Positions 583 through 872 of a stretch of DNA of 64,000 bases are shown here, in pieces. The stretch's first letter is position 1; each line of letters starts with the position of its first letter. The translations under genes were made by a program, and so were the position numbers. Origin of the DNA: an uncultured Candidatus Saccharibacteria bacterium (GTDB taxonomy: Bacteria > Patescibacteriota > Minisyncoccia > Phycocordibacterales > JAKAEA01); NCBI GenBank assembly GCA_964577595.1, contig CAZNZK010000001.1, positions 208,144-272,143 of the forward strand, written 5' to 3'. The notes below the pieces were generated by a model. It did not search any database. It was not told the DNA's origin and saw only the letters and a program-made list of their open reading frames with translations.

Positions 583-872
583 AAGAAATACGGTTCCGGC
601 CGCTCTGGTAAGCCCGCAGCGGTTTCGGGCTTATACCGAGGATACTGTCGCGTCCCGCGTCATAGTGGCATTGAAGCCCTGCTCCATAGGACTTTCTGGC
701 TTCTCTATCATTTCCTTTCCCAAAAGAAAGGAAATCTACCATAGCACCAGAAAGCGCTATGGACTAGCATTAAAGGATTCAATGCGACTATGCGCGAAGG
801 ACGCGCTACTGTTCCCTCTTAATGAGAAGCTGAAACCGCTGCGGGCTTTTGTGAGAAGTGGTATAGCATAAG
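583..872. other. About 290-nt non-coding element with three nested long-range inverted repeats plus internal hairpins. Candidate single-strand origin, att region or structured ncRNA.
   Basis: 583-594 is perfectly complementary to 861-872 (12 bp). 601-618 pairs with 820-837 (15 perfect bp plus extension). 639-656 pairs with roughly 777-796 (shared cgcgtcc/ggacgcg and catagt/actatg). Local hairpins at 701-724 (9-bp stem) and 729-752. No ORF longer than 60 aa is consistent with it. Confidence 0.4.

What the first reader, a model, noticed from the sequence alone, without database searches (positions are those of the whole stretch)
583..872. About 290-nt non-coding region with three nested perfect or near-perfect long-range helices
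583-594 pairs with 861-872 (12 bp). 601-618 pairs with 820-837 (15 perfect bp plus 3). About 639-656 pairs with 777-796. There are also internal hairpins (701-724 with a 9-bp stem, and 729-752) and a recurring CCATAG/CTATGG motif. Nesting this extensive is not expected by chance. Candidates are a single-strand origin (sso-like) for a rolling-circle Rep encoded 1.2 kb away, a recombination site of the element, or a structured ncRNA. The RNase P and tmRNA consensus motifs were looked for and not found.
Basis: seen in the sequence. Interest (0 to 1): 0.6.

Follow-up and report, generated by a model that had tools for sequence, protein, structure and literature searches.

The report
Long conserved hairpin in rolling-circle element
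A 308-base stretch (584-891) that folds into one long rod-like hairpin sits at the left edge of a small integrated rolling-circle element of a candidate-phyla-radiation bacterium, and is most likely the signal that starts second-strand DNA synthesis, though this is unproven.

Summary
The structure is a single 308-nt imperfect hairpin, 584-891. It is the most stable 320-nt fold in the 64-kb window (z about -13 as RNA, -17.6 as DNA).

It lies inside a roughly 4-kb integrated element: att half-site, hairpin, ORF283, ORF76, a plus origin like that of M13/IKe, a gpII-type Rep, and a large serine integrase that runs into tRNA-Val.

Nine related Patescibacteria elements carry a 224-324-nt rod in the same place.
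- Sequence has diverged (about 51% column identity) but pairing is kept: 35 of 48 pairs show compensatory changes, and 0 of 500 shuffles reach that.
- All large bulges lie on the 3' arm.
- The Rep-sense strand always folds better (9 of 9).

There is no Rfam hit, no second copy in the window, no ssoA CS-6 motif and no promoter mimic. It is not the att site.

Best reading (about 0.4): a new type of single-strand (lagging-strand) origin, read on the displaced plus strand. Rivals are a lambda-sib-like RNA hairpin downstream of int across attP, and a filamentous-phage packaging signal. Five close relatives lack it, so it is accessory.

The parts
584..891 (+). The finding: one 308-nt imperfect rod hairpin. 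Helices are 584-604/871-891, 610-626/832-848, 649-659/793-805, 661-678/775-792 and 683-699/747-763. The apex stem is 710-719/726-735 with loop 720-725 (CCAAAA).
   Evidence: Structural homologues occur in nine related elements. Covariation is shown.
849..870 (+). Asymmetric unpaired segment, about 15-22 nt, on the 3' arm only, just above the basal helix. A 3'-arm bulge of 13-24 nt sits at this position in all 8 aligned hairpins.
   Evidence: Rod diagrams. No conserved sequence was found in it; it contains TGGTATAGC, read.
527..542 (+). TAATGGTGCAACTATA, a probable integrase half-site marking the left end of the element (attL side). A related motif sits about 100 nt upstream of the ORF283 homologue in L003 and L041, which have no hairpin.
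   Evidence: local alignment and motif search. GC content drops from about 900 to 4600.
891..899 (+). TGGTATGAT, an extended -10-like sequence abutting the hairpin base, 10 nt before the ORF283 ATG. This is inferred only.
   Evidence: Read; not reported by the consensus scan. In relatives a TTGACT-16-GATAAT or TATAAT promoter-like site lies 19-44 nt after the hairpin.
909..1760 (+). ORF283, an accessory gene of the element family. It has an N-terminal helical domain and a C-terminal part that resembles OmpR/PhoB-type winged-helix DNA-binding domains.
   Evidence: No Pfam, PHROG or NCBIfam hit. 31 homologues found. AF2 model pLDDT 89. Weak Foldseek matches, best E 0.036, target TM 0.6-0.7.
1832..2062 (+). 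ORF76, a small conserved protein immediately upstream of Rep. Its N-terminal half is conserved across the family. Its 3' half overlaps the GC-rich hairpin and the origin palindrome.
1981..2016 (+). GC-rich hairpin(s) with loop ...CTTTAGTGG..., just upstream of the plus-origin hairpin. A stronger 50-90-nt version is seen in nearly every related locus. It is a candidate alternative minus origin or Rep-binding element.
2041..2082 (+). Probable double-strand (plus) origin: hairpin CCTAGGTGT-TAGTA-ACACCTAGG (2041-2063), then GTTGCAATGTGCATC (2068-2082), overlapping the Rep start.
   Evidence: The loop-3' motif TAGTAAC or [AT]CGTAAC is found within 90 nt upstream of Rep in 48 of 53 loci listed, and the stem covaries. 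The layout matches the M13 and IKe viral-strand origins: a hairpin followed by GTTCCAAACTGGAAC or GTTGCATTTTGCAAC. The TAGTAACACC motif is also present upstream of the Rep of plasmid pRIV7116.02.
2074..3126 (+). Rolling-circle replication initiator, gpII/X family. The conserved start is probably the ATG at 2083 (MIDT...).
   Evidence: PF05144 E 6e-18. phrog_702 E 2e-28. TIGR01629 42.6 bits against a cutoff of 29. 24-25% identity to IKe gpII. 176 homologues; the genome-record loci are Patescibacteria/CPR MAGs.
3137..4618 (+). Large serine recombinase (integrase). Its last 9 or so codons are encoded by the 3' end of the antisense tRNA-Val gene.
   Evidence: PF00239, PF07508 and PF13408. phrog_95 E 2e-88. 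The same arrangement with more than 10 different tRNAs is seen in relatives.
4591..4665 (-). tRNA-Val(CAC), the integration target and right border of the element.

Best explanation
The hairpin is a cis-acting signal that is read when the element is single-stranded, and is most likely its single-strand (lagging-strand) origin.

Proposed mechanism, with the status of each step:
1. The roughly 4-kb element excises from tRNA-Val through its serine integrase (inferred).
2. Its gpII-type Rep nicks the Rep-sense (+) strand at the hairpin origin directly upstream of rep. The origin architecture is shown by comparison; the nick itself is inferred.
3. Rolling-circle synthesis displaces the + strand in the order rep, int, att, long hairpin (inferred).
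4. On the displaced strand, 584-891 snaps into a 308-nt rod that single-strand-binding protein cannot coat. Host RNA polymerase or primase starts a primer there, and complementary-strand synthesis runs leftward through att and int (inferred).

It is an accessory, exchangeable module of the element family, not a core part.
For: - Replicon context. The neighbour is a gpII/X Rep. Its origin shares the hairpin-plus-GTTNCA-N3-4-TGNAAC layout of the M13 and IKe viral-strand origins, in the same orientation relative to the rep gene. This fixes the displaced strand as the window's + strand.
- Structure is far beyond chance.
- Structural conservation. Nine other elements carry a 224-324-nt rod upstream of Rep, at the left end wherever that boundary could be mapped. 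They share about 51% column identity, 89.8% of cells are paired, and 35 of 48 pairs have compensatory changes. 0 of 500 shuffles reach this, and slid partners give only 7-13 such pairs.
- Polarity. All large bulges are on the 3' arm. The + strand is more stable in 9 of 9 hairpins: by 1.7-31.5 kcal/mol with RNA parameters, and by 4.1-13.3 with DNA parameters against a null of 0.26 +/- 3.5.
- Positive control. The IKe intergenic region, with annotated ssDNA signals, is likewise that genome's most structured segment and favours the + strand.
- Mini-hairpin motifs. In relatives, the DNA motifs GCGNAGC/GCGNNAGC occur 12 times on the + strand and once on the - strand inside the hairpins, about 15 times the background rate. 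These motifs are reported at primase start sites of ssDNA phages G4, St-1 and alpha3 (PMC13037366).
- A free plasmid with a related Rep and the same TAGTAACACC origin motif, but no integrase (pRIV7116.02), also has a long rod hairpin in its non-coding region.
- Literature. ssos are orientation-specific, defined by structure rather than sequence, and 234-340 nt in pT181 and pUB110 (PMC4595007).
Against: - No function was or can be tested here.
- No sigma-70-like -35/-10 pair lies within the hairpin in the window, L002 or L006.
- No ssoA CS-6 (TAGCGW) occurs in 584-891 on either strand.
- The window's own hairpin has no mini-hairpin motif.
- The window's own strand asymmetry is small: 1.7 kcal/mol as RNA and 4.1 as DNA.
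- The excess of + strand wobble mismatches is weak: 36 against 22, p 0.09, and the lineages are not independent.
- Five close relatives, including L003 with the most similar integrase, lack the hairpin.
- A GC-rich hairpin next to the origin is seen in nearly all loci and could already serve as the minus origin.
- No circular or episomal copy was found among the contigs, and no relative was found in IMG/VR.
Confidence: 0.4

Rival explanations
1. RNA-level retroregulator of the integrase, working like lambda sib. In the excised circle the order is int, attP, hairpin on one strand, so int transcripts end in a long double-stranded RNA rod that is cut by RNase III or that stabilises the message. 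Integration moves the hairpin to the opposite end of the element and uncouples it from int.
For: - The topology fits. The int ORF ends at the right junction.
- The hairpin starts 3-18 nt from the left end of homology in L002/L024 and L006/L022, and about 40 nt after the att-like motif in the window.
- The more stable strand is the int-sense strand.
- Perfect helices of 17-26 bp would suit RNase III.
- The hairpin is dispensable, as a regulator might be.
Against: - No T-run or terminator follows the hairpin.
- Apex loops such as GCGAAGC and CCAAAA are not typical stable RNA loops; GCGAAGC is a DNA mini-hairpin motif.
- The ratio of G-T to A-C mismatches is only 1.6, which is low for a selected RNA.
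- The integrase-less plasmid pRIV7116.02 also has a long rod in its non-coding region.
- Being adjacent to att is unavoidable in so compact a genome, because this is its only large intergenic space.
Confidence: 0.2
2. Packaging (morphogenetic) signal of a satellite of filamentous phages. The element makes + strand circles, and the protruding hairpin is recognised by a helper inovirus's assembly machinery, as hairpin A is in Ff and IKe.
For: - Position. In IKe the morphogenetic stem-loop comes right after the last gene, before the minus and plus origins, on the + strand. Here the long hairpin comes right after int/att, and a GC hairpin plus the plus origin lie next to rep.
- The element has no structural genes.
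- A distant Rep relative sits next to a Zot-type assembly ATPase (L054).
- Inoviruses have been predicted in CPR (PMC6813254).
- From my own knowledge, not tested here: Vibrio TLC-phi is a satellite with a Cri/gpII-type Rep.
Against: - No helper was identified.
- No relative of this Rep was found in 2.9 million IMG/VR contigs.
- At 308 nt it is 4-5 times longer than the annotated IKe signal of 56 nt.
- Five of 15 assessable close relatives lack it.
Confidence: 0.12
3. Independent structured non-coding RNA gene of an undescribed class, carried by the element.
For: Covariation, polarity, and purine-rich internal loops of the GAAG/GATA type.
Against: - No Rfam match.
- No promoter-like site upstream and no terminator downstream.
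- In relatives the nearest promoter-like site lies downstream and points away from the hairpin.
- The shape is a plain rod without multi-helix junctions.
Confidence: 0.08
4. Double-stranded-DNA-level element: a cruciform or protein-binding palindrome that assists integration or excision, or that insulates the element border.
For: It lies at the extreme left end, next to the att half-site. In L063, a 23-bp direct repeat of the hairpin's 3' base flanks a 1.05-kb insertion, which hints at recombination there.
Against: - Consistent strand asymmetry and one-sided bulges are not expected for a site read as duplex DNA.
- Large serine integrases need no accessory sites (my own knowledge).
- No pairing spans the junction.
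- Relatives with very similar integrases lack the hairpin.
Confidence: 0.07
5. Selfish palindromic insertion (MITE-like) with no function for the element.
For: Patchy distribution. Compared with L003 and L041 it looks like an insertion of about 310 nt between the att motif and ORF283.
Against: - There is a single copy in 64 kb.
- It is always in the same place and orientation in the 10 elements.
- Pairing is maintained by compensatory changes across diverged sequences.
- No target-site duplication is visible.
Confidence: 0.05

Closest known systems
Single-strand origins (sso) of rolling-circle plasmids: ssoA of pT181/pLS1/pE194, ssoU of pUB110, sso1 of ICEBs1
   Same: - A long imperfect palindrome in the non-coding part of a Rep-encoding rolling-circle replicon.
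- Similar size: pT181 234 nt and pUB110 340 nt (PMC4595007), against 308 nt here.
- Defined by structure rather than sequence, strand-specific, and dispensable or modular.
   Different: - No sequence similarity to any PLSDB plasmid.
- No CS-6 TAGCGW motif.
- No promoter-like hexamers in the stem.
- It is one continuous rod with a conserved one-sided bulge rather than the ssoA fold.
- The host element is integrative (serine integrase, tRNA target) and from Patescibacteria.
- Activity is untested.
Intergenic region of Ff/IKe filamentous phages: morphogenetic signal hairpin A, minus-strand origin hairpins B and C, viral-strand origin D
   Same: - Same Rep family, and a plus origin with homologous layout.
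- Same order on the + strand: last gene, then hairpin(s), then plus origin, then rep.
- It is the most structured part of the genome and favours the + strand.
   Different: - IKe's individual stem-loops are 18-56 nt, whereas this is a single 308-nt rod.
- Here it is separated from the plus origin by two genes.
- There are no coat or assembly genes.
Lambda sib retroregulation site (from my own knowledge)
   Same: A hairpin located downstream of int on the far side of attP, so that integration separates it from int.
   Different: sib is a short RNase III site of about 50-60 nt that overlaps a terminator and belongs to a tyrosine-integrase phage. Here there is no terminator tail and the hairpin is far longer. 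The RNA role is untested.
Primase-dependent complementary-strand origins of G4/St-1/alpha3, and ssiA of RSF1010, with GCGNAGC or GCGNNAGC DNA mini-hairpins (PMC13037366)
   Same: Relatives of this hairpin carry GCGAAGC at the apex (L002, L006, L022, L063). They carry GCGAAGC, GCGGAGC or GCGGGAGC at one conserved 3'-arm position, almost only on the + strand.
   Different: The window's own hairpin (apex CCAAAA) and that of L027 have none. G4-type origins are sets of short hairpins, not a 300-nt rod.
Frpo/ssi single-stranded-DNA promoters of conjugative plasmid leading regions (from my own knowledge; about 300-nt stem-loops)
   Same: Size and rod shape, including mismatched bulges.
   Different: Frpo carries recognisable -35/-10 hexamers in the stem and drives sense transcription of downstream genes from the transferred strand. 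Here no hexamers were found, and the displaced strand is the sense strand, so only priming would be possible.

Membership tests
sso (functional class: lagging-strand origin of rolling-circle replicons) | Resides on a replicon with a rolling-circle Rep and its double-strand origin | tested here: met
   Rep matches PF05144, TIGR01629 and phrog_702. The origin hairpin plus GTTGCA-N3-TGCA repeat resembles M13 and IKe.
sso (functional class: lagging-strand origin of rolling-circle replicons) | Non-coding region with extensive intrastrand pairing, conserved as structure | tested here: met
   z is -12.9 as RNA and -17.6 as DNA. 35 of 48 pairs are compensatory and 0 of 500 shuffles reach that.
sso (functional class: lagging-strand origin of rolling-circle replicons) | Orientation-specific: works only on the displaced strand | tested here: inconclusive
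   The + (Rep-sense) strand is more stable in 9 of 9 hairpins and the bulges are one-sided. This is indirect, and the effect is small for the window itself.
sso (functional class: lagging-strand origin of rolling-circle replicons) | Promotes conversion of ssDNA to dsDNA and lowers ssDNA accumulation | not testable with these tools
   Needs the plasmid assays of PMC4595007.
ssoA type | CS-6 (TAGCGT/A) in the terminal loop | tested here: not met
   No TAGCGW occurs in 584-891 on either strand. The apex loop is CCAAAA.
ssoA type | RSB RNA-polymerase binding site in the lower stem | not tested
No similarity to PLSDB plasmids.
RNA-polymerase-dependent ssDNA origin or promoter (M13/IKe minus origin, Frpo) | -35 and -10-like hexamers at promoter spacing within the stem | tested here: not met
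   The consensus scan finds none inside 584-891, nor inside the L002 and L006 hairpins. The scan is crude.
Primase-type origin with DNA mini-hairpin | GCGNAGC or GCGNNAGC motif on the template strand | tested here: not met
   The window has 0 motifs. Relatives have 12 on the + strand and 1 on the - strand, and L063 has 2 on the + strand.
Filamentous-phage packaging signal | + strand hairpin after the last gene, upstream of the origins | tested here: met
   The positional analogy with the IKe annotation holds.
Filamentous-phage packaging signal | Element is packaged by own or helper coat and assembly proteins | not testable with these tools
   The element has no structural genes and has no relatives in IMG/VR.
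Lambda sib-type retroregulator | Lies downstream of int across attP and is separated from int by integration | tested here: met
Lambda sib-type retroregulator | Is transcribed with int and processed by RNase III | not testable with these tools
   No expression data are available.
CTX-phi-type folded ssDNA attP | Hairpin stem contains the crossover site, so pairing spans the circular junction | tested here: not met
   Reconstructed junctions of 6 elements show no stem extension. The hairpin is intact in the integrated state.
Known RNA families (Rfam 15) | Covariance-model match | tested here: not met
   No match at gathering thresholds. Only noise appears at E<=10: best 21 bits against a gathering score of 45, a 57-nt sbrA hit.
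MITE/REP-like dispersed palindromes | Multiple dispersed copies | tested here: not met
   Only the two arms themselves match within 64 kb. The rest of the genome was not available.

The most novel reading that the evidence does not exclude
The rod is not a replication signal. It is an RNA switch that senses the integration state of a serine-integrase element. Only in the excised circle does the int transcript run across attP into a 300-nt double-stranded RNA rod (a substrate for RNase III or another factor), and this sets integrase dosage. That would be a lambda-sib-like retroregulation invented independently in rolling-circle elements of candidate-phyla-radiation bacteria.
Probability: 0.15. 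Interest if true: 0.6.

Novelty: new variant of a known kind. Interest (0 to 1): 0.4.

Why it matters
If it is a lagging-strand origin, it defines a new structural type of sso. Together with the plus origin, the Rep and the tRNA-targeting serine integrase, it would complete the parts list of a small natural replicon and integration system from Patescibacteria. I know of few plasmids or genetic tools for these bacteria, so such a module could seed vector design.

It also links free plasmids, filamentous phages and integrative elements through one origin architecture.

If instead it is an RNA retroregulator or a packaging signal, it would point to int-dosage control, or to filamentous-phage satellites, in these bacteria. 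In itself, a long hairpin near a rolling-circle Rep is not surprising to a plasmid specialist.

Tried and rejected
- Rfam on both strands, at gathering thresholds and at E<=10: nothing.
- blastn of the element against phages, and of the hairpin against plasmids: no match.
- Single-protein searches of IMG/VR with Rep and with ORF283, and a profile search with the Rep alignment: no relatives.
- nhmmer and blastn of the hairpin against 56 loci: only L027 and L029 are alignable. Homologues were therefore found by an MFE scan instead.
- CTX-like folded attP: rejected, because no pairing spans the reconstructed junction.
- att site or direct repeats between the element ends: none found, as expected for a serine recombinase.
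- Dispersed repeat or MITE: rejected.
- Promoter mimic in the stem: not found.
- ssoA CS-6: absent.
- Link between the hairpin and ORF283: rejected. The closest ORF283 homologues sit in elements with another Rep family (PF23343) and have no hairpin.
- Circular contigs: none found.
- Candidate 'hairpins' in L005, L009, L020, L026 and L035 turned out to be terminators, tRNAs or GC-rich coding sequence.
- A covariance model of the full rod was not built. At about 300 positions I judged, without submitting it, that calibration would exceed the tool's time limit.

Full report
**Observation**

The sequence between the minus-strand gene that starts at 497 and ORF 909-1760 contains five nested inverted repeats:
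- 584-604 with 871-891 (21 nt, 95%)
- 610-626 with 832-848 (17 bp, perfect)
- 661-678 with 775-792
- 683-699 with 747-763
- 710-719 with 726-735

A further helix, 649-659 with 793-805, was read and the rod diagram. As written, 583-594 and 861-872 are not complementary. The structure also ends at 891, not 872. It is one 308-nt rod, not three domains.

Folding statistics:
- RNA MFE is -163.6 kcal/mol against -97.5 +/- 5.1 for shuffles (z -12.9). The minus strand gives z -12.5.
- With DNA parameters z is -17.6 and -12.5.
- Among 1593 overlapping 320-nt windows of the whole 64 kb it has the lowest energy. After GC correction its z is -4.4; the best segment outside the feature reaches -2.4.

No Rfam family matches on either strand. 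The arms have no other copy in the window.

**Context**

GC content drops over about 900-4600. This stretch encodes:
- ORF283 (909-1760) and ORF76 (1832-2062), neither with a family hit.
- A replication initiator of the filamentous-phage gpII/X family (2074-3126): PF05144, TIGR01629 and phrog_702, with 24-25% identity to IKe gpII.
- A large serine recombinase (3137-4618) whose last codons are encoded by the 3' end of an antisense tRNA-Val at 4591-4665.

This is a roughly 4-kb integrated rolling-circle element. The Rep has 176 detectable homologues; those on titled genome records are Patescibacteria/CPR MAGs.

In 56 fetched loci the module ORF76-Rep-integrase recurs. The integrase ORF ends about 22-27 nt inside a tRNA gene, and more than ten different tRNAs are used.

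**The plus origin**

Directly upstream of the Rep start, a hairpin carrying TAGTAAC or [AT]CGTAAC in its loop and 3' side is present in 48 of the 53 loci listed. Its stem covaries between loci. It is followed by ACGTTGCA-N3-4-TGCAxC.

Aligned with M13 and IKe, the layout is the same: a hairpin, then GTTCCAAACTGGAAC (M13) or GTTGCATTTTGCAAC (IKe). In IKe this place is annotated as the viral-strand origin.

The free cyanobacterial plasmid pRIV7116.02 has a 28%-identical Rep and no annotated integrase. It carries the same TAGTAACACC motif in a hairpin upstream of rep.

I therefore take 2041-2082 as the double-strand origin, and the Rep-sense (+) strand as the displaced strand. This rests on homology of layout, not on experiment.

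**Conservation of the long hairpin**

An unbiased MFE scan of all loci found rods of 224-324 nt upstream of Rep in L002, L006, L007, L022, L024, L027 (identical to L029), L050 and L063. A truncated one is present in L042.

Only L027 is alignable to the window by nhmmer. Mean column identity of the eight full rods is 51%. Even so:
- RNAalifold recovers 48 pairs, 35 of which show compensatory changes.
- 89.8% of cells are paired, against 73.1% in shuffles.
- The covariation score is 0.569 against 0.250 (0 of 500 shuffles reach it). Sliding the partner by 1-3 columns leaves only 7-13 such pairs.

Selection has clearly maintained the pairing.

Five close relatives with enough upstream sequence have no such hairpin: L001, L003 (identical to L058), L005, L021 and L026 (identical to L059). 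L003 has the most similar integrase and ORF76. The hairpin is therefore an accessory module. It is not tied to ORF283 either, because the nearest ORF283 homologues sit in elements with a different Rep family (PF23343) and no hairpin.

**Polarity**

Rod diagrams show that every large bulge is on the 3' arm:
- A 13-24-nt bulge just above the basal helix is present in all eight hairpins (window 849-870).
- Smaller A-rich bulges (AA, AAA, TTAAA, GAAG) are also on the 3' arm.

The + strand folds better than its complement in 9 of 9 hairpins:
- By 1.7-31.5 kcal/mol with RNA parameters.
- By 4.1-13.3 kcal/mol with DNA parameters, against a null of 0.26 +/- 3.5 for random 300-nt windows.

The IKe intergenic region serves as a positive control. 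It behaves the same way and is that genome's most structured segment.

The excess of + strand G-T over A-C mismatches is weak: 36 against 22, p 0.09.

In the L002/L024/L007/L006/L022/L050/L063 lineages, the DNA mini-hairpin motifs GCGNAGC and GCGNNAGC occur at the apex and at one conserved 3'-arm position. One search counts 12 on the + strand and 1 on the - strand, about 15 times background, and L063 adds 2 more on the + strand. Such motifs are described at primase start sites of ssDNA phages (PMC13037366). The window's own rod and that of L027 (apex CCAAAA) lack them.

**Position in the element**

Homology between related elements in different genomes begins 3-18 nt to the left of the hairpin base (L002/L024 and L006/L022). 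In the window, a motif shared with the hairpin-less L003 and L041 (TAATGGTRCAA, 527-542) lies about 40 nt to the left.

The rod therefore sits at the extreme left end. In the excised circle it would lie just beyond the integrase stop and attP.

It is not the att site itself. It is intact when the element is integrated, and reconstructed junctions show no extension of the stem. In relatives, a strong promoter-like site pointing towards rep follows it within 19-44 nt. No terminator tail follows it.

**Interpretation**

Three facts point to a signal read on the displaced single + strand:
- The element has a rolling-circle Rep with a recognisable origin.
- The hairpin is a polar, + strand-biased, structure-conserved but sequence-free rod of sso-like size.
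- A free plasmid with a related Rep and no integrase carries an analogous rod.

The lagging-strand origin is the commonest such signal and is my best explanation (about 0.4).

It is not an ssoA: no CS-6 motif is present. It shows no promoter mimic. If it is an sso, it is of a new type, and the priming enzyme is unknown.

Arguments against:
- The hairpin is dispensable.
- The GC-rich hairpin next to the origin, seen in nearly all loci, could itself be the minus origin.
- Asymmetry in the window's own copy is weak.
- No episomal copy was detected.

Two rivals fit the topology well:
- A lambda-sib-like RNA hairpin across attP from int (0.2).
- A packaging signal of an inovirus satellite, matching the position of IKe's morphogenetic stem-loop (0.12). 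A distant Rep relative lies next to a Zot ATPase, and inoviruses have been predicted in CPR (PMC6813254).

Duplex-level roles, an independent ncRNA and a selfish palindrome are less likely.

**Verdict**

This is a real, conserved and polar DNA or RNA rod. It is a new variant of a known kind of signal, in a family of CPR integrative rolling-circle elements that I found no description of in the literature searches. Interest is moderate.

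Noticed in passing
window 3137-4665; also L002-L053: Across the element family, the serine-integrase ORF ends about 22-27 nt inside the 3' end of an antisense tRNA gene. At least ten different tRNA species are used (Val, Gly, Ser, Gln, Lys, Ile, Trp, Ala, Leu and others). The overlap covers the conserved T-loop sequence GATTCGAAC, which suggests a generic tRNA-3'-end target.
   Followed up: partly
window 2041-2082; L065 about 1965-2000; L064 6554-6620; L073 355-425: The plus origin upstream of Rep (a hairpin with a GTAACACC-type motif in 48 of 53 loci listed, then GTTGCA-N3-4-TGCAxC) has the same layout as the M13 and IKe viral-strand origins. 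It shares TAGTAACACC with a Rivularia plasmid. The stem covaries between loci.
   Followed up: partly
window 1981-2016; homologous position in nearly all loci: A GC-rich 50-90-nt hairpin with loop about CTTTAGCGG lies inside the poorly conserved 3' half of ORF76, next to the origin. It could be the family's real minus origin or a Rep-binding element. The TAGCG in its loop recalls the ssoA CS-6 motif.
   Followed up: partly
L063 2407-2429 and 3483-3505: A 23-bp exact direct repeat of the hairpin's 3' base (CGACCGCGTACTGCTTGGCGCGG) flanks a 1.05-kb insertion that carries three minus-strand ORFs. This hints that the base of the rod is a recombination hot spot.
   Followed up: no
L067, L068, L070, L072: A second family of small elements has the same gene order (ORF283 homologue, small ORF, Rep, serine recombinase) but a different Rep (PF23343 REP_ORF2-G2P). 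This shows module shuffling between the families.
   Followed up: partly
window 909-1760: The ORF283 model (pLDDT 89) has a C-terminal part of about 100 aa that resembles OmpR/PhoB winged-helix DNA-binding domains. The matches are weak (best E 0.036), so it is a possible regulator or DNA-binding protein of the element.
   Followed up: partly
window 552-560: A run of nine C between the att-like motif and the hairpin. In L027 the equivalent CCCCC pairs with GGGGG after the hairpin as an extra basal helix; the window lacks that partner.
   Followed up: no
window 30299-48850 (-): A single open reading frame of 6183 aa.
   Followed up: no
L057 3465-5111 (same DNA as window 3137-4618): A public gene call gives the integrase 548 aa instead of 493. 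It apparently reads through the TGA stop at 4616-4618, probably because a recoded genetic code was assumed. The window's ORFs are consistent with the standard code 11 here.
   Followed up: no
L054 410-2238: A metagenome contig has a Zot-type assembly ATPase directly upstream of a Rep that is 33% identical to the window's. This is a true inovirus-like relative of the Rep family.
   Followed up: no
window 1802-1826: A terminator-like hairpin (AGCTCGCAC...GTGCGAGCT followed by a T-run) lies between ORF283 and ORF76. It is conserved in L003.
   Followed up: no
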